From contig OY764265.1 in NCBI GenBank assembly GCA_963668355.1, positions 1,153,317 through 1,217,316 on the forward strand: a DNA stretch of 64,000 bases, written 5' to 3'. The DNA is from Bdellovibrionota bacterium. Its GTDB lineage: Bacteria; Bdellovibrionota_G; JALEGL01; DATDPG01. Positions 3,231-59,127 of this stretch are shown here, piece after piece; the stretch's first letter is position 1, and every line of letters begins with the position of its first letter. A program made the translations under genes and the position numbers. Under the pieces are notes generated by a model. It made no database searches. It was not told the origin of the DNA and was given only the letters and a program-made list of their open reading frames with translations.

Positions 3231-5681
<2,451 letters not shown>

Positions 5682-5691
5682 GAGGGGCGAA

Positions 5692-8160
5692 ATGGGTACG
5701 AAAGAAGCAGTCAGAGAAATTCCCCGTTCCATTGAAGAGGAAATGCGTGCGTCATACCTCGATTATGCCATGAGCGTCATCGTGGGACGTGCACTTCCAG
5801 ACATTCGCGACGGATTAAAACCCGTCCACCGGCGCGTGCTCTATGGCATGTATGACATGGGCAACACGCATAGCAAGCCTTACAAGAAATCGGCACGCGT
5901 GGTCGGGGATGTCATGGGTAAATATCATCCGCATGGCGATTCAGCGATTTACGACACGATTGTGCGCATGGCCCAAGACTTTTCTCTTCGATATCCGCTG
6001 GTGGATGGCCAAGGGAACTTTGGATCCATCGATGGCGATTCAGCGGCCGCCATGCGTTACACCGAAATTCGGATGGATCGCATAGCCGAAGAATTTCTCG
6101 AAGACATCGAAAAAGAAACGGTCAAATTTGGTCGAAACTATGATGACTCCTTAGATGAGCCGCTGGTTTTGCCTACGCGTGTTCCGAACCTGTTAGTTAA
6201 CGGATCCTCCGGAATTGCCGTTGGAATGGCCACAAACATTCCCCCACACAATCTAACCGAAATTTGCGATGGCGTGGTTTCCATGATTCGAAACCCCGAA
6301 CTTTCGGATAAAGAGCTTTTTACAACGGTTAAGGGACCCGATTTTCCCACGGGCGGCATCATTTATGGCCGAACGGGCATCAAGAGCGCGTTCACAACCG
6401 GGCGAGGAAAATTCATCATCCGCGCTCGCGCCATGATTGAGGACATGAAAAAGGGCGATCGTCAGCAGATCGTTGTCACGGAAATTCCCTATCAGGTGAA
6501 TAAAGTTCGGCTCATCGAAGCCATTGCAAATCTGGTTCGAAACAAAAAAATCGAAGGAATATCTGATCTGAGGGATGAGTCGGATCGAGATGGAATGCGG
6601 ATTGTCATTGAGCTCAAGCGAGATGCCAACTCGGCCGTAATTTTGAACCAACTGTATGCGAACACGCAAATGCAAACCTCTTTTGGCGTGATCATGCTGG
6701 GACTGGTCAACGGCCAACCCAAAGTGGTTTCACTCCGCGAGGCCATGGAAATTTTCATTGGTCACCGAAAAGAAGTTGTCATTCGACGGACCATCTTTGA
6801 CTTGCGAAAGGCCGAAGAAAAAGCCCATCTTTTGGAGGGCTTAAAAATTGCCTTGGAAAACATTGATGAGGTTATCCGAATCATCAAAAAGTCCAAAGAT
6901 CCTCATTTGGCTCGAGAGGCACTTTGTAAAAAGTTTTCATTATCCGAACGACAATCCACCGCGATTCTGGAAATGCGTCTCCAACGGTTAACCAACCTGG
7001 AACGCGATAAAATTTTAGAGGACTACAAAGCTACGCTTGAACTCATTAAGAAATATCGCGCGATTTTGGCCGATGAAAAATTGGTCTACAACATCATCGT
7101 GGATGAGTTGGAAGAGATTAAGAAAAAGTATGGTGACAAGCGATTGACCGAAATTCGAGCTCAATTGGATGAATTTTCCGAAGAAGATCTCATAGCCGAA
7201 GAAGATATGGTGGTGACGATCACGCATGCCGGATACATCAAGCGAAACCCCGTGACGATGTATCGCAACCAGCGTCGAGGTGGACGAGGGAAAATTGGGA
7301 CCGGGATCCGAGAGGAAGACTTTGTCACGTCGCTCTTTGTGACCTCAACACACGACTATCTTTTGATTTTCACAGACCGTGGGAAATTATATTGGGTCAA
7401 AGTTCACGAACTTCCCCAAGCGGGAAGAGCGGCGAAGGGAAAACCTTTGGTGAACTTGATTCGTTTGAGTCCGCAAGAAAATGTCACGGCCATTTTACCC
7501 GTTCGGGAATTTGTCGAAGGAAAGCAGATTGTGATGGCGACGAGAAAAGGCGTGATCAAGAAGACAGACCTGATGGCTTTTTCTAACCCAAGGGCGGCAG
7601 GAATCATTGCCTGTGGAATTGATGAAGGGGACCGAATGATCTCCGCCGCGATTACCGAAGGAAACTCGGAAATCTTTTTGGCCACGCGAACGGGCCAGGC
7701 CATTCGTTTTAAAGAGGCCAACGTTCGTTCCATGGGTCGGCAGGCTTACGGCGTAAAGGGCGTTGAGCTTGGAAAGGGCGATGCGGTTGTCGGCATGGAA
7801 GTGTTGACCGGCGAGGGCTTGATGTTGACAGCCACGGAGAATGGTTACGGAAAATTGACCGAAACCACCGAATACCGAACACAGAGCCGCGGCGGAAAAG
7901 GCATCATGACCATGAAGGTCACCGAAAAGAATGGCCCGGTGGTTGGGGTGGCCCAGGTTGCTAAAGATGATGATGTGATGCTCATCAGCGATCATGGAAA
8001 ACTCATCCGAACCCAGGCCAAGGGCATTTCGATCTATGGTCGGGCAACGCAGGGTGTTCGCCTCATTCATATGGAAAAGACCGAAAAACTCGTTGCATTA
8101 GCGAAAATCGTTCCCGAAGACGAAGAAGAAGCTACAGCCCCTGTTGCTGGAAACGCTTAA
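5692..8160 (+). CDS. gyrA: DNA gyrase subunit A
   Basis: 822 aa; N-terminal [31 protein letters not shown] and active-site region AAMRYTE; AGGAGG RBS. Confidence 0.97.
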
Positions 8161-8230
8161 AAAGCGCGACACCCGTCGCGCAAGAGGACTCCGAAATCGT
8201 TGTTAAGAACAGCTACGTTTAAGGGAAGCA

Positions 8231-8419
8231 AATCTGAGGAAGAGTCTCTCCGCTTCGGGTTACGTTCGCTCCAAAGACTACGATCACTGCAGGCGGGGCC
8301 CCTCGTTGTCCGCCCAGCGTCAAGCATAGCTTGCCGCAGGTCGTCTCCGTTTCCCCTACCTTCCGTTCACGAGGTCTTTGGGCTCTCTTCACAGGCGCGG
8401 AGAGACTCTTCCTCAGATT
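8231..8419. repeat. Perfect 23-bp inverted repeat pair (AATCTGAGGAAGAGTCTCTCCGC and its reverse complement) flanking a 143-bp interior
   Basis: Arm 1 at 8231-8253 and arm 2 at 8397-8419 are exact reverse complements; interior shows further imperfect complementarity (CCAAAGAC / GTCTTTGG). Confidence 0.8.
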
Positions 8420-8541
8420 CGCTTTTCGTCATGAGTAATTCTTTTATCTCGCTCCCCTCGCTTGAAATCATTCATTCAAACGGAGACACCTTTTTTGTGA
8501 GAGATGTTTTTAAAGTTACCTTGGAAATGTTGAAAGGGTGG

Positions 8542-8600
8542 CCGACAGGGAAAGGGGCTCCGAGCACTGTCGGGGCGCAGCGAGCCCCTTTCCCTGTCGG
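8542..8600. repeat. Perfect 19-bp stem hairpin (CCGACAGGGAAAGGGGCTC ... GAGCCCCTTTCCCTGTCGG) with 21-nt loop
   Basis: Exact reverse-complement arms at 8542-8560 and 8582-8600; no downstream T-tract. Confidence 0.8.
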
Positions 8601-8756
8601 TCAGGACCCTCCCACAAAATCTCCTCGGCTCACTTTATGCCCAGAACGAAACTCATGCGCGACGAATGTCGCGCATTTACGGATGTCGCGCTTTTTGAGT
8701 TTGGTTTTGAAGGAAGGGCCTTGCTTACATTTCGGATCTGGGGCAGCATCGGGGGC

Positions 8757-9551
8757 GTGAAGGTTTTTTATCTCATCATTCTTGTCAGCCTGGTTGGTTG
8801 TGCTACGGCAGACTTTCGAACCGCAGAAGAAATGGTTCGCCACCAGAAATTCTATAATGGCATAGAACTTTACCTAACCTTTGTCCGAGAGCACCCCAAG
8901 CACAGACGTGCGCCCGAAGCGTTGTTTGAAGTTGGAAATATTCAACAACTCATGTTGAACGATCACAAACAGGCCATGGCCACGTATCGAAAACTGGTCA
9001 ACAACTTTCCCATTAGCCACTACACCATCAACGCCCAACAACGAATCGCAGAGATCTACAAAACCCAACAAGCGGATTATCGTCAGGCCATCGTTGAATA
9101 CGAAAAACTCATCCAAGCTTCCCCCAAAAACCCCCAAGCGGGGAACTATCAGCTTGAGATCGCACAATGCTACACGCTCCTACACAACTACGAACAAGCG
9201 GCGATTGAATTTCAAAAACTCATCGATGAATATCCTGCCTATGGACGCCTGGACGAGGTGTTTTTTCAGGCAGGAAACAATTTTTACATCAGCGGAAAGT
9301 ATAAGGAAGCCATTCAAAGCTATGAAACGGTTTTGAGTCGATTTCCAAACTCCAATTTTCGCCCCCAAGCTCTTTTTGGAATCGGGGGGGCCTATGAGGA
9401 GATGGACCAGTTCAAAGAGGCACGCAAGTATTATGAGATGGTGGTGAAAGATTACCCCTCTCCCCAAGTCGTTCAGATTCGCTTAAAGGGTTTGTCTGAG
9501 CGAGAGAAGAAGAAGACCAAGATCGCAAAGGGCGCACATATCCGGCATTGA
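8757..9551 (+). CDS. TPR-repeat lipoprotein (YbgF/tol-pal-associated-like)
   Basis: In-frame GTG start gives MKVFYLIILVSLVGC lipoprotein signal; tetratricopeptide-like repeats follow; the longer ORF-track start at 8538 runs through the palindromes and is unlikely. Confidence 0.6.
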   Translation: MKVFYLIILVSLVGCATADFRTAEEMVRHQKFYNGIELYLTFVREHPKHRRAPEALFEVGNIQQLMLNDHKQAMATYRKLVNNFPISHYTINAQQRIAEIYKTQQADYRQAIVEYEKLIQASPKNPQAGNYQLEIAQCYTLLHNYEQAAIEFQKLIDEYPAYGRLDEVFFQAGNNFYISGKYKEAIQSYETVLSRFPNSNFRPQALFGIGGAYEEMDQFKEARKYYEMVVKDYPSPQVVQIRLKGLSEREKKKTKIAKGAHIRH

Positions 9552-12397: not shown

Positions 12398-12736
12398 ATG
12401 AAAATTTTTGGTTTATTGGTCGTTGGCTTAGTGTCGTTGGTTGCAACTGCAGCATTTGCTGAAGGAGGAGCTGAAGCGGCAGCGGCTGGCGCAGCCATGT
12501 TGGGAGATGGTGCGAAACAAGCGCTCGCGATTGGTGCGGGCTTGGGTTTGGCGTTGGCGGTTTTTGGGGGCGCTTTGGGACAATCAAAAGCAACCGCCGC
12601 AGCGGTTTCGGGCATCGCTCGAAATCCAGAATCTCGAAAAGAGCTGTTCATTCCGTTCATGTTGGGACTGGTCTTCATGGAGTCTTTGGTTCTGTACATG
12701 TTCGTTATCGCCTTTTTCTTCATGCAAAAAATTTAA
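12398..12736 (+). CDS. atpE: F0F1 ATP synthase subunit c
   Basis: Helical-hairpin proteolipid with Gly/Ala-rich helix 1 and conserved carboxylate in helix 2 (LGLVFMESLVLY); preceded by GGAAAGGAG RBS. Confidence 0.88.
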   Translation: MKIFGLLVVGLVSLVATAAFAEGGAEAAAAGAAMLGDGAKQALAIGAGLGLALAVFGGALGQSKATAAAVSGIARNPESRKELFIPFMLGLVFMESLVLYMFVIAFFFMQKI

Positions 12737-12749
12737 ACGTTGGAACATA

Positions 12750-12782
12750 GGGAGGCGTTCTCTTTCAGCGCCTCCCTTTTTT
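12750..12782 (+). terminator. Rho-independent terminator-like hairpin downstream of atpE
   Basis: 8-bp GC stem GGGAGGCG / CGCCTCCC, 11-nt loop, followed by TTTTTT (12777-12782). Confidence 0.55.
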
Positions 12783-12787
12783 GTATC

Positions 12788-28387: not shown

Positions 28388-29488
28388 ATGTCGAAGGGGG
28401 ACTCTAAAAAAATTCTACTTACACTCTTTGGAGTGGCTTGTCTCTATCCGCTTTCCGCCTCTGCAAATCTTTACACTCAGCTTCGCGATACGGTTGTTCC
28501 TCAAGCCAAAGTGGTTCCGGCCGTTCAAAGCGAAATCGGTCGAACGGCTCGGCAGTTAACAGCCATTTCAAACCGATATGAGGCTGCCGGAATTTTTCCC
28601 CATGACATGGGCGATGTTTTCAAAAATGCTTTCGCAGGTGGGCGCATTCAAGGACATCAACCCAAATTTTCCCAAGCGTTTAGTCGATACGGAAAGTCCA
28701 TCGGCTTTGAAACTTCAAATGGGTTTTCCTTTTTGGTTCCCTCTTTTGAACGAAGGGGAACGCTCCCGTTTGAAAAATGTGAAAATGGCCCCTCCCTCTC
28801 CGATCTTTTGATGCATGTAGCTCAAATTGAGACAGGGGATGCGAAGGCCGAACTCGAGGAAATTCACTTTGTCCACACGCCTGAAATGTCTGCATCTACC
28901 GCAAGCATTCTGTACGCCGCTGAATATTGTTCTTCGGATCGTTTGGTTTATGCAAGTGCAAATGGCGAAATGAAAGACTTGGTCGAGCGGGTGCGAAGAG
29001 TCATGGGAAGAAATCCCAAGCGGCCCCTTGGAAATGAAGCCGTCATCCCAGAGCGCCTAATCTCGGCGCTTGAAAGTGTGTATCAGTTGCAAGAGATACA
29101 GGTTCCTGATCTCGAAACCTACGACCGATTTTCCGGCTTCGACTTTTCCGAGAGTGGCACCATGCAGGACGTTGTGGATATGGCCATGGATTATCTAGAG
29201 GAAGTGAGCCGTTTGCTGGAAGAGGTGAGTTCTCCCTCTATGGATGCTTCTCGCAGTTATCGAAAAACGAGGACGTATTTAGAAATCGTCGCTCCGGCCA
29301 TGTTGACGACGATTGAGTCCAAGTATCGAACCTTGTTATCGATTCGAAATCCTGAAATCGCCCCCAGCGTGCAAAAATTTCGAAAATTTCGCCAGAAACA
29401 TAATCGTCTCATGGATCATCTCACGGAACATCGCCGTGTTCAGTGGAATGACTTTCTGCGTGGCGTTTCCCTCCACCCCCAAGGGTAA
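28388..29488 (+). CDS. Exported hypothetical protein
   Basis: 366 aa; signal peptide ILLTLFGVACLYPLSASA; no recognisable domain. Confidence 0.55.
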   Translation: MSKGDSKKILLTLFGVACLYPLSASANLYTQLRDTVVPQAKVVPAVQSEIGRTARQLTAISNRYEAAGIFPHDMGDVFKNAFAGGRIQGHQPKFSQAFSRYGKSIGFETSNGFSFLVPSFERRGTLPFEKCENGPSLSDLLMHVAQIETGDAKAELEEIHFVHTPEMSASTASILYAAEYCSSDRLVYASANGEMKDLVERVRRVMGRNPKRPLGNEAVIPERLISALESVYQLQEIQVPDLETYDRFSGFDFSESGTMQDVVDMAMDYLEEVSRLLEEVSSPSMDASRSYRKTRTYLEIVAPAMLTTIESKYRTLLSIRNPEIAPSVQKFRKFRQKHNRLMDHLTEHRRVQWNDFLRGVSLHPQG

Positions 29489-52583: not shown

Positions 52584-53087
52584 CTATTGAGAGCGGGTTG
52601 AAAAGGTAATCGTGCGGCAGGGAGCCGTGTTTTTCGAAGAGGCTCTCGTTAGAATGCGGCCCGAAAGACTTCCATCTTCATTGAGGCGAATCCATAAATC
52701 CTGGCAGACGGTTGAGCCCTTGTTGATGTGGCAAGGGATTTGTTGCCATTGGTTTGGTGTTAGTGTGGTTTCCAGAACGCTTGGTTCCAGGAGGGCCTCT
52801 CCAAGGAGTTTTCCGCCGTTGTCATGGGTGCGAACTGTCAGGTGAAGGCCATTATCCAGATCAGCAAGGATAAACTCCAGCAAACCCTCGTGGTGCACAA
52901 CCTGTCCCCCCGCTTTCCAATCGTCTCCTGGGGCGTATAGCTGCGTGGTTTCGCACCTTCCTGCGATGCCGTGTTGCATGCCCTCAAGGCTAAGGAGGGC
53001 TTCTTCGATGGTTAGATCTTCAGCAATAGCGAGCCTTGGGATTAAAAGTCCTATGCTTACCACCACACCCAGAAAGAATTTGTTCAT
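52584..53087 (-). CDS. Small exported hypothetical protein
   Basis: 167 aa with signal peptide FLGVVVSIGLLIPRLAIA; upstream of the SSF transporter on the same strand. Confidence 0.45.
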   Translation of the reverse strand: MNKFFLGVVVSIGLLIPRLAIAEDLTIEEALLSLEGMQHGIAGRCETTQLYAPGDDWKAGGQVVHHEGLLEFILADLDNGLHLTVRTHDNGGKLLGEALLEPSVLETTLTPNQWQQIPCHINKGSTVCQDLWIRLNEDGSLSGRILTRASSKNTAPCRTITFSTRSQ

Positions 53088-53375
53088 TGCCCTGTCCTTT
53101 AAAAATTAATGCTTCGCGTCAGGCTGGACTTTATACCTCATCTGGAGCCTCGAAAGAAAGGTTCAAGGGGAGATTTTTTGAAAAAAATTTTGGGCCACCG
53201 TGTAGAAATTTCGAAAAATTCGTAAACTTTAGTTGTCGTTTAAGATATTAAAATAAAAAGATAAATTTGGTTATTGCTTTAAAAACGTGTTTTTTGTTAC
53301 ACTAAAGCTGCACCCCCGAAGGTTGCTCCAGGAGGCGGGACCCAGATTTTCTGGGTTTGGAGTGTCATCGGGTTT

Positions 53376-53412
53376 GGGGTGGGCTCCCTCCCGGGCCCAC
53401 CCCCTTTTTTTT
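53376..53412 (+). terminator. Strong Rho-independent terminator on the plus strand with no plus-strand CDS upstream
   Basis: GC stem GGGGTGGGC(TC) / (GG)GCCCACCCC with short loop followed by T8 (53405-53412). Confidence 0.55.
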
Positions 53413-53613
53413 GCTCACAGCAAAAAACTTGGGAACGGCTAATTCGCCGCATATCTTCGTTAGAGCCCTTCGCTCGGTCCTCACGTACCGCGCAAGTACG
53501 CTGCGGTCGTTTTTCGTTTTCCGCCTTGATCTGCACCAAAATAGCTCGTTTCGTAGTTGTTCAAAGAAGACGCGTGAGCGTTTCTCCCGGGTTTTTCCTC
53601 CGAAAAAAGTTTT

Positions 53614-55050
53614 CTAAAAACGTAAGCTTGTTGTCAAAAAGATTTCGTGGAGTTGGATTTTTGCGTCTAGGTCGTTGGTTTCGGTTTCTTGGCGAAACGC
53701 ATACTGAAGGGCGCAAGAGAGGTTTCGGATCGGGTAGTAAAACGCATGGGCTCGGAGCGACCACTCTTTCTCCGTGGTTCGAGGTGCGGATGTAGGAGAA
53801 AGGTCTTGCCAGGCGTCACGCTCATTGCCTTCGAGGGTTCCTCCCATCTCCAGGCGAAACTCCCCATCTCGGAAATTTCTTCCCATCAAAAGATCTATGC
53901 CCGTGTTGAATCCACGATAATTGTCGATGAGGTCCGCTTGAATTCGTAGATCAAAATCGGAATCAAAGAGTTGGGGGTCACGATAGCCTACGGTGTATTT
54001 GATTTGGTTTTGGTCATCAAAGGTGCGTTTCATGTATTGGATGGCGCCAAAGACATAATTGCGATCAAAAATCCGAAACATGATCTGATCTCGAACACCA
54101 TAGTAGTACGCGTCAGTGACTTGAGCCCCTCCCAATAACGTGGAGTTAAAGAGGGGATCGCTGGAAGGAAGAATGGTCGAGAGATTTGAGGCATCAAACT
54201 GAAGAACGCGCCACAAGTTGAGGGAAAGCGTGTTGGTGAAGCTGGGTTGAGGTCGGGTAATCACCGATAATTGACCCAGTCGAAAGGCTGCGACTCCAGC
54301 AACATCTGCTTCCACCAAGCCAGAAAGACTCCATCGCGCATTGAAGTCGTAGGTACCTTGAGCAAATGCGGTCATGCGATCCAAACTCTTCTTGAACCAT
54401 TGGGCGTGAAGCGCGACATCTCCTCGAAAAGCGTTTCCTCGATACGAAGCATACACACCTGAAGTGAGGTAATCCAAAGAGAAGGGCTCACTCCGATACG
54501 CGCTTCCCAAGTAGCCAACTTGATTTCTCAAGTCATTGGCGAATCCGCCGAATAAACCAAGGCTCACACGATTGGAAGAGTGATAGACCAAACGAAGGCC
54601 ATCTACGCGAGCCCCTCCGGCTTCATACATGCGTTGGCGTCCCACCCATAAATCCAGTGATTTTGCGATGGAGGGAAGCTCCAAGCTGGCTTCGTAAAGT
54701 TGGTGCCGCCCCGCATTCGAAAATGAAAAGGTGGAATTTTTTTCTCCAATATTGAAATAGCTTCGTCCTTTGAAATGAAAAGTGCCGTCCTGTGAAGCAT
54801 TTTCACCAAAGAGTTTGGAAATTTTGGTTCGAAGGCCCAGCGAGAAAAGGCTGTACTGATCTTGAATATAATTGTTTCCGTAAAGATCGTCGGCCTGGAA
54901 GTTGGCTTGGCTCGAGACATTGTTTCGTAGATGCCAAAAACCCATATCCACATTGCCTTTGAATTCGGCCGCGTGAAGAGGAGCATGCGCGGCAAAAAGG
55001 AGCGCCCCTCCCAACAGGCCCAGAGCTCGAAGGGTTCCCCGTTTCTTCAT
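53614..55050 (-). CDS. Outer-membrane beta-barrel protein (porin-like), third gene of cytochrome operon
   Basis: Signal peptide LRALGLLGGALLFAAHAPLHA; alternating amphipathic beta-strand pattern; C-terminal ...TSLRF aromatic terminus; ATGA start/stop overlap with the cytochrome gene. Confidence 0.7.
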   Translation of the reverse strand: MKKRGTLRALGLLGGALLFAAHAPLHAAEFKGNVDMGFWHLRNNVSSQANFQADDLYGNNYIQDQYSLFSLGLRTKISKLFGENASQDGTFHFKGRSYFNIGEKNSTFSFSNAGRHQLYEASLELPSIAKSLDLWVGRQRMYEAGGARVDGLRLVYHSSNRVSLGLFGGFANDLRNQVGYLGSAYRSEPFSLDYLTSGVYASYRGNAFRGDVALHAQWFKKSLDRMTAFAQGTYDFNARWSLSGLVEADVAGVAAFRLGQLSVITRPQPSFTNTLSLNLWRVLQFDASNLSTILPSSDPLFNSTLLGGAQVTDAYYYGVRDQIMFRIFDRNYVFGAIQYMKRTFDDQNQIKYTVGYRDPQLFDSDFDLRIQADLIDNYRGFNTGIDLLMGRNFRDGEFRLEMGGTLEGNERDAWQDLSPTSAPRTTEKEWSLRAHAFYYPIRNLSCALQYAFRQETETNDLDAKIQLHEIFLTTSLRF

Positions 55051-57128
55051 GGTTTTGCCGGCCTCCATCCAAATGTGAAGTGGCAGGTTTCACAGGTGAT
55101 GGGTGCGCCCACATGACCGGTGATCGTGGCATCGAAGTCCTTGGCATGACAGAAGTGACAATCTTGCGGTAAGCCGCCAAAAATTCGATTGGCATGACAT
55201 TGGTTGCAATCCAAGAAGCGGTGGGCTCCCGAGAGGTCAAAGCCCGTTTGGGAGTGTCGGAAGGTGGTGGGGAGCCAAGCTTGTTGGTTGTGACATTGCC
55301 AACACGTTCGCCCAAAGGAATTCATATGGGGGTCGAGATGGCAAGCCGCGCAGTCCGTTCGGGAGGTGCGAACGTTTTCCGTGGCATTGTGGCAGGCCGT
55401 GCAATCCATTTGATCATGAACTCCACCCAACGAAAATTCGCCAAAATCATGAAAGCCTCCTTTTCGAACGGAGAAGCCTTCAAAGACATGACAACGCTCA
55501 CAATTGGTTCCAAACGTTCCATCATGAACATCCCGGTGACAAGACGAGCATTCGCTGGATTCAAACTTGTATTGATAATCTTTATGGCATTGATTGCAGG
55601 CCAGCTTTCGATGTTGTCCTCTTAAGTTAAACCTGGAACCTCGCTCATGATCGAATTCGATGTCGTTGAAGGCAATGGGCGCATGGCATCGCATGCATTC
55701 AATTCCAAGTTCTCCCTTGTGGAAGTCCGTGTGGCAATTTTGGCAAAGGGTGTCGATGCCGGCATAGCGGCCATTCGAGTGACAATCCGCACAGGGTACG
55801 TTTTGGTGTTTTCCAACCAACGGAAAACGGGATTGCCGATTGTGGTCGAAGGTCAGGTTTTTAAATGCAGAGAACGTATGACAGGATGCACAGGTTTTCT
55901 TTCCAAATTGTCCTTTATGTACATCGATGTGACAGTAGGAGCAGTCCGGATTTTGATTAAGCCAGCGATACTTGGCGTCTGCATGACATTGGCCACAGGG
56001 AACGACCTTATGTTTTCCTTCGAGTTTGAACCGCGCATCTTTTTCATGGTTGAACTTCAAGAACTTCCAGCCGTCTTCAATATGGCAGCTCTTGCAAGTT
56101 TTCTTTTCGGTCCAGAGAATTTCGAATTGATTTCCATGGGGGTTATTGTGACAGCCGCTGCATTGAGAAAAGTTTTTCATTTTTCCAATGACAGGGCCGT
56201 GACACCTCACGCACGTCACATAGTTATGTTCGCCTCGTAAAGGAAAGGCAGTTTTACTGTGGTCAAACTCACCCTTTCCTTTAGGGGTGATCGCTCGCCA
56301 AGAACGCGTGTGATGACATTTCTTGCAATCTTTTCCCAGCTTTCCCTTGTGGGGATCTACGTGGCAATTGCTACATCGTTTGAACGGGGTGGGTTTCCAG
56401 AGTTTGTTTTTGTGACACGCGTAACAATCGACCGGTTTATGTTTCCCGGTGAGAGGATATTTCGTGTCTCTATCGTGATCAAACGGGAGCCGGGCTAAAA
56501 TGGGGGACCATTTCGAAGTGTTGTGACATTTTTCACATAAGGTGAACGATTGGGTTTTGGACTTATGAATGTCCTCGTGACAAGACGCACATTTAGAGGG
56601 GGTGTTGATGTAAGTTCGTGTGTTGGTTTTACGGCCGGTTTTTACATGGCGGCGTTTGGCTTTGTGGCAGTCCTCACATTGCGCAGTGACGTGTGCACCA
56701 TCCAACGGCCAGTCGGTTTCGTCGTGATGAAAGGAAAGGCGCGTTAAACCCATCAAATCATAATCCAAGCCTTTGTGATCACTGTGGCATTCGATGCAGG
56801 TTCCTTCAACACGCGCATGGTATCCCTTGTCCTTGGAAACCAGAGAGGCGATTTCGGTATGGCAGTCGAGGCATTTTTGGTCAGGGACACCTTTTGCGGT
56901 GGCGTGGCAATCGGTACACTTGCTCAAGCCTTCCAGCTCTTGGTGGGCTTTGGCCAAAGGACCGGGATTTAGAAGCCCTCCGAAGTCAAGCTGGGCCCTT
57001 GCCGGTGACGCTGTCGCCAGAAATCCAAAAATGGCCGCAATGATTATGTGTCCCCGAAATCTCAAAAACATCCCCAAGTGAACTAAAACGATACCCGGAA
57101 TCGTCCAATTGGCGAAATTTTCAATCAC
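55047..57128 (-). CDS. Multiheme cytochrome c with 27 CxxCH motifs (about nine triheme c7-like repeats)
   Basis: 27 CxxCH motifs counted in the translation; signal peptide MFLRFRGHIIIAAIFGFLATASPARA (alternative start near 57071); recurrent FDH / GxH distal-His spacing. Confidence 0.9.
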   Translation of the reverse strand: MIENFANWTIPGIVLVHLGMFLRFRGHIIIAAIFGFLATASPARAQLDFGGLLNPGPLAKAHQELEGLSKCTDCHATAKGVPDQKCLDCHTEIASLVSKDKGYHARVEGTCIECHSDHKGLDYDLMGLTRLSFHHDETDWPLDGAHVTAQCEDCHKAKRRHVKTGRKTNTRTYINTPSKCASCHEDIHKSKTQSFTLCEKCHNTSKWSPILARLPFDHDRDTKYPLTGKHKPVDCYACHKNKLWKPTPFKRCSNCHVDPHKGKLGKDCKKCHHTRSWRAITPKGKGEFDHSKTAFPLRGEHNYVTCVRCHGPVIGKMKNFSQCSGCHNNPHGNQFEILWTEKKTCKSCHIEDGWKFLKFNHEKDARFKLEGKHKVVPCGQCHADAKYRWLNQNPDCSYCHIDVHKGQFGKKTCASCHTFSAFKNLTFDHNRQSRFPLVGKHQNVPCADCHSNGRYAGIDTLCQNCHTDFHKGELGIECMRCHAPIAFNDIEFDHERGSRFNLRGQHRKLACNQCHKDYQYKFESSECSSCHRDVHDGTFGTNCERCHVFEGFSVRKGGFHDFGEFSLGGVHDQMDCTACHNATENVRTSRTDCAACHLDPHMNSFGRTCWQCHNQQAWLPTTFRHSQTGFDLSGAHRFLDCNQCHANRIFGGLPQDCHFCHAKDFDATITGHVGAPITCETCHFTFGWRPAKP

Positions 57129-57156
57129 AAAAGAAGAAAAGAAATCTTTAGTGAAA

Positions 57157-59127
57157 TCACCAGTTTGTGAAAAGAATGAGGTTCTTCAAAATGTGACCGA
57201 CGGCGATCATCATCATGATCCAAGCGAAGGGTCGATGAACCGTTCGCCAAAGGGCAAAAAGTCTGGACGTTACATTTAATAGAGCCGCGTTTCGTTGCAG
57301 GCGGATTTGGCTTTTCAGCAAATCCAGGAAGACGTGAACTTGGCGACCTTGAATTTTGATTTCTGAAGGAAGGCGAAGTCGGTAGGTCCACAGCATGACC
57401 CATGTACGGATGACCGAACGAATCAAAGACCAAAAGGTTGGATTCAGGCGCGCATCTTCGGTGGCCGTTTGAACAATCTTTTTCACAAAAGCCTTTTGCG
57501 CATCGGACTGACCCAAAAGGGCGCCTAATTTTTGCGTCAGAGCTTCATCTTCTTCTTCAATGTCCCGCATGCGCAGTTCAGTCCCTGCAACCCCACGCGG
57601 TATGATTTGATAGAGGAACCGTCCGAACAGTCCACTTAAAACCACCAGTCCCAAGGCCACGATCCCGAAAGAACTGGGCTGGAAGGGAAAGACAAAAGCC
57701 GTGTGAAAGAGGATCAAAACCGATCCAAAAAATCCGCAGAAATTGTGAAAATCCAACCAGGCGGGTTCTCGGCCCAAATACTTAAAGAGGCGTGGAAACT
57801 GTTTCCGCAAGGGGTAGGCTAAGCTTCCCATGATCAGAAGAAAGCCCAAGTTTCCATAGAAGTTACAAAGTTTGGAGCCTCGAGAAAATTCCAAAACCGC
57901 ATCTGAGGGGAGCCAGCCCCAGGCCTTCATGAGAAGAAGCAACGAGACGTCCGGGGATTTGGTGAGGGCAAAGGCTTCCCACGCCAGAAAGAGCGTTCCC
58001 ACAAAGGCTAAGAAAACATATGTTTTTTGCAGAGCCAAATCGAACCAATTCCTCTGCAAAAGACTGTCCATGGGTTTCTGAACGCCTTTCCCGGCTCCCA
58101 GAATTCGGGGATCTTCCAGAAGTTCCGAAGCTTCTACCTCCAGAATCGCACCCGTGGGGCAATTGGCGACGCAGGCAAGATCATCAAACCCATCACAGTG
58201 ATTGCATTTGTCCGCGATGAACTTGGGTTTGACCTTTTTATGGGGATCGAGGAAACGAGAAAACACAGGAAGTGTGGGCTCAACCTTGTGCATGAGGATG
58301 GCTCCATACTGACAAGCCGTGGCACAGGCCGAGCAGCCGATGCAATTGTCCAAAATTTCCACCTCACCCGTTTGTCGGTTGAACACCACAGAATCCACAG
58401 GGCAAGAGGGGATGCACGCGGGGTAGAAGCAAGTCAGGCAGCTTTTGGCAAAGTCCAGAACGCCAAACCGGGCATACCCCCGTTCAATTCGTTGAAACCC
58501 GTGCCGTTCTTCACAGGAGGTGTAGCAAATATTGCATTCGATGCATTTGTCCATTTGGGTGATTTTCACGCGAGAGCCTTGCGTGAGTTCGGTTTGGATC
58601 AAGAATTCAAGCGCGGACCGAGAATGTTTATCCTCACTGAACGTCCGGTTTCGATAGTCGACGCGATCGGCAAGTTTTTTTAAGTCATCCTTAAAGCCGG
58701 GTTGAATCTCGGCCAAGCGCTGAAGGTCTTGTCGGGAAACGACCAAGAGTTCTACCGCCGTGATGGCAGTGGCCTTCGTGGCCACTTGTCCCCGCCAGGA
58801 GAACGCCTTATCTACAAAAAAATCGCCTTTTCGGAGAAAATTGAGCGGTTTTTGACGTGCCTCCTCGTCAAATCCTGAGATTTGCAGTTGTCCTTGCAGA
58901 AGGAAAAAGAAGTATGAGAAAACAGCCTCTCGTTTGGGAAGTTCCAGAACGGTCTCTCGGGCGGGATAGCTGCATCGATACACGCGGCCATCCAGGTGGC
59001 GCAATGAAGCCCCTGGGACTTTGCGAAACAAGCGCAAGCGTTTCAAGTCCTCTGAGGTGGCCAGAGGAAAAGAAAGGGGCTTGGATGCCTGTTGCGAAGT
59101 TGGTTTTAAGGGCATACGTTTTCCCAT
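57157..59127 (-). CDS. Membrane-bound iron-sulfur protein: cNMP-binding-like N-terminus, two 2x[4Fe-4S] ferredoxin domains, C-terminal polytopic membrane domain
   Basis: Cys clusters CIECNICYTSC, CLTCFYPACIPSCP, CIGCSACATAC, CNHCDGFDDLACVANCP; N-terminal Crp-like beta-roll pattern; four to five hydrophobic helices at C-terminus. Confidence 0.8.
   Translation of the reverse strand: MGKRMPLKPTSQQASKPLSFPLATSEDLKRLRLFRKVPGASLRHLDGRVYRCSYPARETVLELPKREAVFSYFFFLLQGQLQISGFDEEARQKPLNFLRKGDFFVDKAFSWRGQVATKATAITAVELLVVSRQDLQRLAEIQPGFKDDLKKLADRVDYRNRTFSEDKHSRSALEFLIQTELTQGSRVKITQMDKCIECNICYTSCEERHGFQRIERGYARFGVLDFAKSCLTCFYPACIPSCPVDSVVFNRQTGEVEILDNCIGCSACATACQYGAILMHKVEPTLPVFSRFLDPHKKVKPKFIADKCNHCDGFDDLACVANCPTGAILEVEASELLEDPRILGAGKGVQKPMDSLLQRNWFDLALQKTYVFLAFVGTLFLAWEAFALTKSPDVSLLLLMKAWGWLPSDAVLEFSRGSKLCNFYGNLGFLLIMGSLAYPLRKQFPRLFKYLGREPAWLDFHNFCGFFGSVLILFHTAFVFPFQPSSFGIVALGLVVLSGLFGRFLYQIIPRGVAGTELRMRDIEEEDEALTQKLGALLGQSDAQKAFVKKIVQTATEDARLNPTFWSLIRSVIRTWVMLWTYRLRLPSEIKIQGRQVHVFLDLLKSQIRLQRNAALLNVTSRLFALWRTVHRPFAWIMMMIAVGHILKNLILFTNW

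What the first reader, a model, noticed from the sequence alone, without database searches (positions are those of the whole stretch)
53100..53613. Orphan plus-strand intrinsic terminator in a 0.5-kb gap between minus-strand genes: candidate small RNA
A strong GC stem plus T8 terminator (53376-53412) reads on the plus strand, but the nearest plus-strand CDS ends about 2.5 kb upstream. A TTGCTT-N18-TACACT promoter-like sequence (53274-53303) would give an approximately 100-nt transcript with an internal hairpin CCCAGA-TTT-TCTGGG (53341-53355). It could alternatively act as a bidirectional terminator.
Basis: seen in the sequence. Interest (0 to 1): 0.45.

Follow-up and report, generated by a model that had tools for sequence, protein, structure and literature searches.

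The report
Conserved small RNA gene beside porin-cytochrome operon
The orphan terminator closes a roughly 100-nt non-coding RNA gene with its own promoter, and the same RNA sits next to the same outer-membrane porin/multihaem-cytochrome operon in two distantly related uncultured bacteria, so it is most likely a real, undescribed small RNA, though not a new kind of element.

Summary
A hairpin at 53376-53403 (11 bp, 9 G-C pairs, dG -24.3) followed by T8 reads on the + strand. It lies in a 526-nt gap between two minus-strand genes, 2.5 kb from the nearest + strand CDS, and is stronger than the best site in any of 30 shuffled windows.

The small-RNA reading is supported by comparison. A covariance model of 53305-53412 hits two metagenomic loci, L001/L002 and L147. 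In both, the hit lies just 3' of the orthologous porin gene (42% and 38% identity).

All three copies share:
- an extended -10 motif, TTTGTTAnnnT;
- a ~100-nt RNA that folds independently into the same long hairpin, with a 5'-side bulge carrying GAGGCGGG;
- a G+C-rich terminator.

On the three-sequence alignment, 96% of pair cells are paired and 16 of 30 pairs change on both sides.

In both relatives the RNA is co-oriented with the porin gene. In the window it is inverted. The hairpin has no U-tract on the minus strand, so it is not a canonical bidirectional terminator.

No Rfam family matches. No target was found, and expression is untested. Verdict: a new family of an ordinary kind, of moderate interest.

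The parts
53241..53256 (+). Upstream A+T-rich block TAAGATATTAAAATAA, about -69 to -54 from the predicted start. Possible UP element or regulator site.
   Evidence: It aligns in register with TAAGATACTAATATAA in L001. Anchored on the predicted +1, the ungapped identity is 38/72 at offset 0 and 20-28 at other offsets. 19 of 2000 shuffles reach the alignment score. The block is not present in L147.
53274..53279 (+). -35-like hexamer TTGCTT.
   Evidence: The aligned position in L001 is TTGACA, a perfect -35, with the same 18-nt spacer.
53293..53303 (+). Extended -10 region TTTGT-TACACT (TGn plus TACACT).
   Evidence: TTTGTTA is invariant in all three loci: window TACACT, L001 TACCCT, L147 TAAAAT. 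It lies 37-40 nt upstream of GAGGCGGG in each.
53310..53412 (+). Predicted transcript, ~103 nt. The start is inferred as 7 nt after the -10; the end is in the T8 run.
   Evidence: Covariance model R1 of 53305-53412 hits L001 7477-7580 (23.7 bits) and L147 3624-3723 (21.5 bits). G+C is 67%, against 25% in the 135 nt upstream and 48.7% for the window. No + strand ORF ends before the terminator.
53315..53372 (+). Stem-loop I. Outer helices 53315-53319/53368-53372 and 53325-53330/53358-53363; inner hairpin 53339-53346/53350-53357 with loop UUU.
   Evidence: MFE and centroid folds. L001 and L147 fold independently into the same architecture. On A8, helices 1-3 have 11 of 19 pairs changed on both sides.
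53331..53339 (+). Eight-nt 5'-side bulge GGAGGCGG, carrying the conserved motif GAGGCGGG (53332-53339). Candidate seed or protein-binding site.
   Evidence: GAGGCGGG is invariant in all three RNAs. It sits immediately 5' of the inner hairpin and 40-45 nt upstream of the terminator stem. It is predicted unpaired in all three independent folds. The 8-mer occurs only once on both strands of the 64-kb window.
53376..53412 (+). Intrinsic terminator: 11-bp stem, loop CCUCCC, then C and U8.
   Evidence: The stem shows compensatory changes among the three loci, with 5 of 11 pairs changed on both sides. The loop sequence is not conserved (UAAACC-like in L001, GUGG-like in L147).
53614..55068 (-). Porin-like outer-membrane protein gene. 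It is the last gene of an operon encoding a cNMP-binding/4Fe-4S protein, a 27-haem cytochrome and this porin. It is the conserved neighbour of the RNA and here converges on it.
   Evidence: It has a signal peptide and a C-terminal Phe. Homologues were found, and synteny of the three-gene cluster is shown. The cytochrome was identified and has 27 CxxCH motifs.
52584..53087 (-). 167-aa ORFan with a signal peptide. It is transcribed divergently from the RNA's promoter region and is not part of the conserved module.
   Evidence: There is no homologue among 5.8 billion proteins and no Pfam or NCBIfam hit. Its own frame scores best on codon usage, but weakly.

Best explanation
53310-53412 (+) is an independently transcribed small non-coding RNA gene of about 100 nt. 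It belongs to an undescribed family that travels with a gene cluster encoding a cNMP-binding/Fe-S protein, a multihaem cytochrome and a porin.

Shown by sequence and comparison:
- a sigma-70-type promoter with an extended -10 (TTTGT-TAnnnT);
- a long hairpin whose 5'-side bulge displays the invariant G-rich octamer GAGGCGGG;
- a short linker and a strong intrinsic terminator.
All of these are conserved in order, spacing and structure in three genomes whose porins are only 38-45% identical. The helix sequences have drifted through compensatory changes.

Inferred mechanism:
- the RNA acts in trans as a riboregulator;
- the exposed GAGGCGGG bulge is the contact surface and pairs with C/U-rich stretches of target RNAs;
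- the 5' hairpin and terminator give the RNA stability;
- its fixed position beside the operon suggests a role connected with that respiratory, extracellular-electron-transfer-like module.

In the two relatives its terminator also ends the porin operon. In the window the module is inverted, so the RNA converges on the operon.
For: Terminator.
- It is real and beyond chance.
- No + strand CDS or small ORF could use it.

Homologues.
- Model R1, built from the window alone, found L001/L002 7477-7577 (E ~8e-4 in 653 kb) and L147 3624-3723 (E ~4e-5 in 17 kb). Both lie in the intergenic region directly 3' of the porin orthologue.
- L001 and L147 share 23/27 identical bases across GGGTGTCT..GAGGCGGGGCTAG.
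- In the reciprocal test, an nhmmer profile built from L001+L147 alone gives 53331-53412 as the top hit in the window.
- GAGGCGGG occurs once in 128 kb, at exactly the expected distance from the terminator.

Structure.
- Independent MFE folds of the three RNAs give the same architecture, with the motif in a 5'-side bulge.
- On alignment A8, 96.3% of cells are paired and 16/30 pairs change on both sides. 0/500 shuffles reach this, and the slid controls give 28-60% paired with 0-5 double changes.
- G.U pairs are conserved in all three, which would be C.A on the other strand.

Promoter.
- TTTGTTA is invariant at the same distance in all three loci.
- The window and L001 upstream regions align in register (38/72 identities at offset 0; p about 0.01).
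- Other intergenic regions of the window show sigma-70-type TTGACA/TAnnnT promoters.

The RNA body is a 67% G+C island set in 25% G+C DNA.
Against: - No expression data exist for any member.
- There are only three sequences, and alignment A8 was fitted to the model's structure, which inflates the pair counts.
- Much of the CM score comes from the terminator. The unrelated atpE terminator alone scores 19-20 bits with R1 and R3.
- The body-only model R2 gives L001 only 10.6 bits (E 0.5 in 13 kb, although it is the top hit and in the right place). It does not find L147 at all.
- The nhmmer reciprocal hit has E 0.27.
- The window promoter matches the consensus at only 7/12, and the A+T-rich region holds many equally weak matches.
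- No complementary site (CCGCCTC) and no favourable duplex was found in the neighbouring operon's mRNAs in any of the three loci. A duplex scan against 40 translation-start regions in the window was no better than shuffled controls. The base-pairing mechanism and the link to the operon are therefore inference only.
- The element is absent next to more distant porin homologues.
Confidence: 0.6

Rival explanations
1. The element is an operon 3'-end module, not a regulator. Ancestrally it is the 3' UTR of the porin operon: a stabilising or processing hairpin plus the operon's terminator. In the window a local inversion has left it as an orphan that may be transcribed weakly or not at all.
For: In L001 and L147 the element is co-oriented with the porin gene, and its terminator is the only one behind that gene. 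The porin operon in the window has no canonical terminator of its own. No trans target was found.
Against: The inverted copy in the window still has the extended -10 motif, the bulged hairpin with intact pairing, the invariant octamer and a perfect terminator. That is unexpected for a relic at this divergence (porin 38-45% identity). A promoter-like TTGACA-18-TGT-TACCCT sits between the porin stop and the RNA in L001.
Confidence: 0.15
2. It is the same independently transcribed RNA, but it works by binding a protein or the ribosome rather than by base pairing with mRNAs. The exposed GAGG-containing bulge resembles a Shine-Dalgarno sequence.
For: The invariant part is a short, structurally presented motif in a bulge. 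No complementary targets were found nearby. GAGG is the Shine-Dalgarno core, and genes in this window use AGGAG-type sites.
Against: There is only one motif copy per RNA. The CsrA-type A(N)GGA consensus is not conserved: L001 and L147 read CGAGG and UGAGG. No candidate binding protein is linked to the locus.
Confidence: 0.12
3. It is an insulator against divergent or pervasive transcription. The A+T-rich promoter region of the 167-aa gene fires in both directions, and the terminator merely stops antisense transcription from running into the convergent porin operon. The short RNA has no function of its own.
For: The 25% G+C region 53170-53304 holds many weak promoter-like sites on both strands. 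A second, weaker + strand terminator-like hairpin follows at about 53482-53520.
Against: This does not explain why the RNA body, its structure and the octamer are conserved in relatives. There the neighbours differ, the element is co-oriented with the porin gene, and the 167-aa gene does not exist.
Confidence: 0.06
4. It is a bidirectional or minus-strand element. The hairpin ends the minus-strand porin operon, or it belongs to a long 5' leader of the 167-aa gene.
For: The hairpin is equally stable on the minus strand (-25.1 kcal/mol). The minus-strand RNA 53620-53340 folds with z = -4.6. The operon otherwise lacks a terminator.
Against: On the minus strand the hairpin is followed by AAACCCGAUGA, with no U-tract. 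The same genome uses a canonical U-tract terminator after atpE. Conserved G.U pairs and the T-run put the conserved structure on the + strand. The models match the minus strand only through the near-palindromic stem (11.8 bits). Rfam finds no leader or riboswitch.
Confidence: 0.04
5. It is a chance resemblance. The orphan terminator is a relic, and the matches in L001 and L147 are ordinary operon terminators with fortuitous upstream similarity.
For: Terminator-only matches reach 19-20 bits. Body-only and sequence-only tests are individually non-significant.
Against: Several independent features coincide in the one intergenic region next to the orthologous gene. An exact GAGGCGGG lies 40-45 nt before the terminator; the expected chance of the 8-mer falling in a 16-nt slot is about 2e-4. 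An exact TTTGTTA lies 37-40 nt before that. The upstream regions align in register (p about 0.01). The MFE architecture is the same in all three.
Confidence: 0.03

Closest known systems
Intergenic 'orphan promoter / orphan terminator' small RNA genes, as predicted and then detected in Sinorhizobium meliloti and Staphylococcus aureus (PMC2573895, PMC2790875, PMC2330248)
   Same: A co-oriented promoter-terminator pair 40-500 nt apart in an intergenic region, neither belonging to a flanking CDS. A ~100-nt RNA with a 5' hairpin and a classical terminator. Structure is conserved while helix sequences vary (for the criteria; here).
   Different: No Northern or RNA-seq detection here. The lineage is an undersampled, probably uncultured one. 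The family has no Rfam model.
Staphylococcal Rsa RNAs and RNAIII with unpaired UCCC / C-rich motifs that bind Shine-Dalgarno sequences (PMC2790875)
   Same: Similar size and layout. The window RNA has CCUCCC in its terminator loop, which would fit that mechanism.
   Different: The C-rich loop is not conserved in L001 or L147. The conserved unpaired motif is G-rich (GAGGCGGG). That is closer to the G-rich regions noted for RsaI in the same paper than to the UCCC class.
3'-UTR-located sRNAs with their own promoter that share the mRNA's terminator, such as DapZ and MicL of enterobacteria (from my own knowledge, not checked here)
   Same: In L001 and L147 the RNA lies directly behind the porin gene, is co-oriented with it, and its terminator is also the operon's terminator.
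   Different: The promoter lies in the intergenic spacer rather than inside the upstream CDS. In the window the whole module is inverted, so it cannot be 3'-UTR-derived there.
Bidirectional intrinsic terminators between convergent genes
   Same: A strong G+C-rich hairpin placed between convergent transcription units, here the RNA (+) and the porin operon (-).
   Different: Only one strand has the U-tract. The upstream flank is GGGTTT, not an A-tract.
Rfam RF02241 Xoo2 (Xanthomonadaceae sRNA), the best Rfam score in the region
   Same: A small 5' hairpin plus terminator, of similar length.
   Different: 17 bits against a gathering score of 45, E = 1.4, and the similarity is essentially confined to the terminator. 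It is not a member.
[quoted passage not shown]
   Same: [quoted passage not shown]
   Different: The porin matches no Pfam or NCBIfam model. The cluster has a single 27-haem cytochrome and a cNMP-binding Fe-S membrane protein. Membership of Pcc was not tested. No small RNA has been reported with such clusters in the searched literature.

Membership tests
Intrinsic (Rho-independent) terminator | G+C-rich stem of at least 5-6 bp with a short loop | tested here: met
   11 bp, 9 of them G-C, loop of 6 nt, dG -24.3 kcal/mol.
Intrinsic (Rho-independent) terminator | U-tract immediately 3' of the stem | tested here: met
   C followed by T8 at 53404-53412. It is stronger than the best site in any of 30 window shuffles.
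Intrinsic (Rho-independent) terminator | Transcripts actually end there | not testable with these tools
   No Term-seq or RNA-seq data are available.
Bidirectional intrinsic terminator | U-tract after the hairpin on both strands (an A-tract 5' of the stem on the reference strand) | tested here: not met
   The 5' flank on the + strand is GGGTTT, so the minus-strand RNA continues AAACCCGAUGA.
Independent intergenic sRNA gene | Own promoter at a suitable distance upstream, not attributable to a flanking CDS | tested here: met
   TTGCTT-18-TGT-TACACT. The extended -10 TTTGTTA is invariant in three loci at a fixed distance, and L001 has a perfect TTGACA at the aligned -35. This is sequence-level evidence only.
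Independent intergenic sRNA gene | No coding potential | tested here: met
   No + strand ORF ends before the terminator, and there is no ATG in 53300-53375. Codon scores of overlapping ORFs are at noise level. The only mini-ORF in L001 (M-F-P) is not conserved.
Independent intergenic sRNA gene | Conserved secondary structure supported by compensatory changes | tested here: met
   96.3% of cells paired and 16/30 pairs changed on both sides. 0/500 shuffles reach this, and slid controls are far lower. Independent folds agree. Caveat: only 3 sequences, and the alignment was fitted to the model.
Independent intergenic sRNA gene | Detectable stable transcript | not testable with these tools
   No transcriptome data.
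Any Rfam 15 family (including 6S, SRP, tmRNA, RNase P, riboswitches, Xoo2, SorY) | Score at or above the family's gathering threshold | tested here: not met
   No gathering-level hits in the whole window. The best hits in the intergenic region are 17-18.5 bits against thresholds of 45-111. Nothing covers the homologous elements in L001 or L147 except a 18.5-bit rli40 match (gathering score 100, E 0.8) on the opposite strand, overlapping the L147 terminator. There is no tRNA or tmRNA.
C-rich (UCCC) loop sRNAs of the RsaE/RNAIII type | Conserved unpaired C-rich motif able to pair with Shine-Dalgarno sequences | tested here: not met
   The window's terminator loop is CCUCCC, but the loop differs in L001 and L147.
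CsrB/RsmZ-type protein-sponge RNAs | Many repeated A(N)GGA motifs in loops or single-stranded regions | tested here: not met
   One conserved motif per RNA, and it reads CGAGG or UGAGG in the relatives, with no GGA.
Riboswitch or transcription attenuator | A co-oriented gene downstream of the terminator | tested here: not met
   In the window the next gene downstream on the + strand side is the convergent porin gene. There is no Rfam cis-regulatory hit.
3'-UTR-derived or 3'-UTR-embedded sRNA | Lies in the 3' UTR of, and co-oriented with, the upstream gene, sharing its terminator | tested here: not met
   This is met in L001 and L147. In the window the element is on the opposite strand to the porin gene.

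The most novel reading that the evidence does not exclude
The RNA is a dedicated riboregulator, or a combined terminator and regulator, of a porin/27-haem-cytochrome electron conduit in a deeply branching, largely uncultured lineage. It has stayed physically linked to that operon across divergence that has erased most protein identity, and it tolerates inversion. Its G-rich bulge would contact C-rich sites in respiratory or envelope mRNAs, or in another sRNA. That would give a first handle on post-transcriptional control of extracellular electron transfer outside the model Proteobacteria.
Probability: 0.2. Interest if true: 0.55.

Novelty: new member of a known kind. Interest (0 to 1): 0.42.

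Why it matters
- It turns a sequence-only hunch into a comparative case for a new small RNA family in a lineage with almost no sequenced relatives and no known riboregulators.
- It flags a conserved partnership between that RNA and an operon that looks like an outer-membrane electron conduit.
- If the RNA is expressed, its invariant octamer gives a precise mutational target.
- The inverted copy in the window is a natural experiment. It separates the RNA's own function from its role as the operon's terminator.
- The finding does not change any general concept. Promoter-plus-terminator sRNA genes are commonplace.

Tried and rejected
Searches that found nothing.
- Rfam at gathering level on the whole window, and at E<=10 on the intergenic region: noise only. 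ARAGORN found no tRNA or tmRNA.
- Synteny via the adjacent Na+/solute symporter in genome contigs: 80 loci at 58-70% identity, none syntenic, and no similarity to the intergenic region. The closest symporter (74%, L146) is not syntenic either.
- The 167-aa neighbour has no homologue at all.
- A metagenome DNA scan seeded with the inner hairpin (CCCAGATTTTCTGGG..T6): 63 hits, all chance, matching only the seed.

Ideas tested and dropped.
- A Bacteroidetes-type -7 promoter (TAAATTTG at 53262). TAnnTTTG is not enriched in the window, and other intergenic regions show TTGACA/TAnnnT promoters.
- An anti-Shine-Dalgarno terminator loop (CCUCCC) as the functional site. It is not conserved.
- Fur, FNR, CRP, sigma-54 and RpoE-like site scans. 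Nothing stands out near the promoter. TTGATCTGCACCAA at 53526 is one of about eight equally good FNR-like matches.
- Target search. Full-length duplexes against 40 translation-start regions were no better than shuffled controls. There is no CCGCCTC in the operon mRNAs of any of the three loci. Motif-region duplexes with operon start regions sit at the background median.
- A 13-nt inverted repeat between 53063-53075 and 53348-53360. The mRNA and the RNA carry the same-sense sequence, and only 7 bp could form, with a base-paired arm. Treated as chance.

Weak or negative model tests, reported as weaknesses.
- The body-only model R2 gave weak (L001) or no (L147) detection.
- Models R1 and R3 found no member in L148-L155 and no second copy in the window.
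Full report
**1. The observation**

- A perfect hairpin GGGGTGGGCTC/CCTCCC/GGGCCCACCCC lies at 53376-53403, followed by C and T8 (53405-53412). It has 11 pairs, 9 of them G-C, and dG -24.3 kcal/mol.
- TTGCTT-N18-TACACT lies at 53274-53303.
- CCCAGA-TTT-TCTGGG lies at 53341-53355.
- The site sits in the 526-nt gap between two minus-strand ORFs, 52584-53087 and 53614-55068. This is the longest intergenic region in the window.
- The nearest + strand CDS ends at 50901.

I folded the 42 nt upstream of every T>=6 run on both strands. This site is the most stable in the window. The best site in each of 30 dinucleotide shuffles of the whole window reached only -12.6 to -20.7. Terminator-like sites in general are no more frequent than in shuffles. 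The only other canonical terminator follows an atpE-like ORF (12749-12777). So this organism uses classical terminators sparingly, and this is its strongest in 64 kb.

**2. What it is not**

- Rfam 15 has no gathering-level match anywhere in the window. In the intergenic region there is only noise: Xoo2 at 17 bits against a threshold of 45, SorY, and a CRISPR repeat.
- There is no tRNA or tmRNA.
- No + strand ORF ends before the terminator, and 53300-53375 has no ATG. Codon-usage scores of the overlapping ORFs are at noise level.
- No co-oriented gene lies downstream, so it is not an attenuator or riboswitch.
- On the minus strand the hairpin is as stable (-25.1) but is followed by AAACCCGAUGA rather than a U-tract. 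It therefore lacks the defining feature of a bidirectional terminator.

**3. Context**

- It is preceded by a c7-type multihaem cytochrome with 27 CxxCH motifs and by a cNMP-binding/4Fe-4S membrane protein.
- A GldA/F/G-like ABC transporter is transcribed divergently.
- The cluster resembles porin-cytochrome clusters (PMC4245776), but I did not test membership.
- On the other side lies a 167-aa secreted ORFan with no homologue among 5.8 billion proteins, followed by a Na+/solute symporter.
- The source genome (a 2.92-Mb contig) has no close relative in the collections. The symporter's best matches are 70-74% identical, come from Calditrichota, KSB1 and other FCB-group MAGs, and are not syntenic.
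- Other intergenic regions show sigma-70-type TTGACA/TAnnnT promoters and AGGAG ribosome-binding sites. TAnnTTTG is not enriched. A Bacteroidetes-type promoter reading was therefore dropped.

**4. The comparative evidence**

*First homologue.* A covariance model built from the window sequence alone (R1, 53305-53412 with its MFE structure) was run over 653 kb of fetched loci. It hit only L001/L002, the one metagenomic relative that shares the three-gene cluster (porin 42% identical). The hit is at 7477-7577, 96 nt after the porin stop (22.5 bits, E ~8e-4).

*More porin homologues.* An exhaustive HMMER search with the two porins found about ten more homologues. Their contigs could be looked up.

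*Second homologue.* One of these, L147 (porin 38% identical to the window's), has a 493-nt gap after the porin gene. R1 hits it at 3624-3723 (21.5 bits, E ~4e-5 in 17 kb).

*Absences.* Loci with more distant porins (<=36% identity) have no hit with R1 or with the three-sequence model R3. Some have no spacer at all (L148/149, L150). Others have unrelated sequence (L151-154, L155).

**5. What the three copies share**

- (a) TTTGTTA, an extended -10 (TGT + TACACT / TACCCT / TAAAAT). It lies 37-40 nt upstream of the conserved octamer. L001 has a perfect TTGACA at the aligned -35, with the same 18-nt spacer as the window.
- (b) A ~100-nt RNA. Each folds independently into a 5' tail, a long hairpin whose 5' side carries an 8-9-nt bulge, an inner hairpin, a 1-3-nt linker and a G+C-rich terminator with U6-8.
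- (c) The invariant octamer GAGGCGGG. It lies in that bulge, immediately 5' of the inner hairpin and 40-45 nt before the terminator stem.

L001 and L147 share 23 of 27 bases across GGGTGTCT..GAGGCGGGGCTAG.

The window and L001 also align upstream. When both are anchored on the predicted +1, ungapped identity is 38/72 at offset 0 and 20-28 at other offsets. 19 of 2000 shuffles reach the score. The best local alignment between the two whole intergenic regions is exactly this promoter block.

On the model-guided three-sequence alignment:
- 96.3% of pair cells are standard pairs;
- 16 of 30 pairs change on both sides;
- 0 of 500 column shuffles reach this;
- sliding the partners by 1-3 columns drops pairing to 28-60%, with 0-5 double changes.

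Several G.U pairs are present in all three sequences. They would be C.A mismatches on the opposite strand. Together with the T-run, this fixes the transcribed strand as + in the window.

**6. How solid the homology is**

There are real weaknesses.
- The terminator dominates the CM score. The unrelated atpE terminator alone scores 19-20 bits.
- A body-only model (R2) gives L001 just 10.6 bits (E 0.5 in 13 kb), although it is the top hit and lies exactly upstream of the terminator. It misses L147.
- A sequence-only profile of L001+L147 finds 53331-53412 as the top hit in the window, but at E 0.27.
- There are three sequences, and the alignment leans towards the model.

Against that, several independent features coincide in the one intergenic region beside the orthologous gene.
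- GAGGCGGG occurs once in 128 kb of window sequence, at the predicted distance from the terminator. The chance of the 8-mer falling in a 16-nt slot is about 2e-4.
- TTTGTTA lies at the predicted distance before it.
- The upstream regions align in register.
- The fold architecture is the same in all three.

I put the probability of true homology at about 0.85-0.9.

**7. Orientation**

In L001 and L147 the RNA is co-oriented with the porin gene, and its terminator is the only one behind that gene. In the window the whole module (upstream block, promoter, RNA, terminator) is inverted, so the RNA converges on the porin operon.

Two things follow.
- First, in the window no upstream gene can supply transcription. 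The retained promoter motif and intact structure therefore argue that the RNA is a self-contained transcription unit and not merely a 3' UTR.
- Second, the porin operon in the window has lost its canonical terminator. Its transcripts either stop inefficiently at the U-less hairpin or read through antisense to the RNA. I could not test either.

**8. Mechanism**

*Shown:* promoter-like motif, structure, invariant unpaired octamer, terminator, and conserved linkage to the operon.

*Inferred:* the RNA is expressed and acts in trans, with the G-rich bulge as the contact surface.

I found no support for a target in the neighbouring operon.
- The complement CCGCCTC is absent from the operon mRNAs in all three loci.
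- Duplex energies of the motif region with the operon's translation-start regions sit at the background median.
- A window-wide duplex scan was no better than shuffled controls.

The C-rich terminator loop (CCUCCC) looked like the UCCC loops of staphylococcal Rsa RNAs (PMC2790875). It is not conserved, so that idea was dropped.

A protein-binding or ribosome-binding role for the GAGG-containing bulge remains open. The CsrA-type repeated GGA pattern is not present.

**9. Comparison with known systems, and verdict**

By kind, this is a classical intergenic small RNA gene. It is the sort found by 'orphan terminator plus orphan promoter' screens (PMC2573895, PMC2790875, PMC2330248). In the relatives its position recalls 3'-UTR sRNAs that have their own promoter.

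By family, it matches nothing in Rfam 15. No paper in the library links small RNAs with porin-cytochrome clusters.

I rate it a new member of a known kind. It is well supported as a conserved element. It is probable but unproven as an expressed riboregulator. Its function is unknown, and its persistent association with the electron-conduit-like operon is the most interesting lead. Interest is moderate (0.42).

Noticed in passing
window 53482-53520 (+): A second, weaker terminator-like hairpin on the + strand: ACGUACCGCGC..GCUGCGGUCGU followed by UUUUCGUUUU. It lies about 100 nt downstream of the main terminator and could be a back-up terminator or chance.
   Followed up: partly
window 53135-53179 (+): A third + strand hairpin plus T6 (dG -12.8) just upstream of the A+T-rich promoter region. 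It lies inside the presumed 5' leader/promoter region of the 167-aa gene, on the opposite strand.
   Followed up: no
window 53182-53193 and 53422-53433: Imperfect 12-nt direct repeats, AAAAAATTTTGG and AAAAAACTTGGG. They bracket the whole inverted module (upstream block, promoter, RNA, terminator). They might mark the rearrangement boundaries or be chance in A/T-rich DNA.
   Followed up: no
window 29364-29391 and 53195-53222: A 28-nt direct repeat, 86% identical (CCAsCGTGyAraAATTTCGAAAAwTTCG), containing the palindrome TTTCGAAA. One copy lies at the 3' end of ORF 28388-29488, the other in the intergenic region upstream of the RNA promoter. It may be a regulator site.
   Followed up: no
window 52584-53087 (-): The 167-aa ORF has a signal peptide and an AGGA ribosome-binding site but no homologue among 5.8 billion proteins and no domain hit. 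Its codon score is lower than that of typical genes in the window. It may be a lineage-specific or recently acquired secreted protein.
   Followed up: partly
window 53614-59127 (-); L001 1837-7380; L148 1-4422; the P0124 contig: A conserved three-gene cluster found only in a handful of metagenomic contigs. It encodes a cNMP-binding/4Fe-4S membrane protein with ferric-reductase/cytochrome-b-like helices, a ~650-690-aa multihaem cytochrome (27 CxxCH here), and a ~470-aa porin-like protein with no Pfam or NCBIfam model. In several of these contigs it is followed by acyl-CoA carboxylase genes.
   Followed up: partly
L155 3760-3925 (+): Behind a more distant porin homologue (29% identity) there is a different promoter-terminator unit of about 120 nt (TTTACA-17-TATGAT). 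It has an unpaired UUUCCUCCUUU and no GAGGCGG, and it does not match the models. An A+T-rich block (ATAATTAATATAT) is shared with L001's upstream region. This may be a diverged or replaced small RNA at the same position.
   Followed up: partly
window 12399-12786 (+): An atpE-like (F0 c-subunit) small ORF, not listed among the ORFs of >=150 aa. It is followed by the window's only other canonical intrinsic terminator (12749-12777) and then a dnaJ-like gene.
   Followed up: partly
window 8226-8253 / 8397-8424 and 8539-8560 / 8582-8603: Two long, nearly perfect inverted repeats (28 nt at 96% and 22 nt at 95%) within or near ORFs 8200-8760 and 8538-9551. A minus-strand terminator-like hairpin lies at 8181-8164. 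Their nature was not examined.
   Followed up: no
window 56522-56537: A perfect CRP-type palindrome, TGTGACATTTTTCACA, inside the cytochrome gene. It most likely arises from Cys-His (TGT CAC) codons of haem-binding motifs, read on both strands, and not from a regulator site.
   Followed up: no
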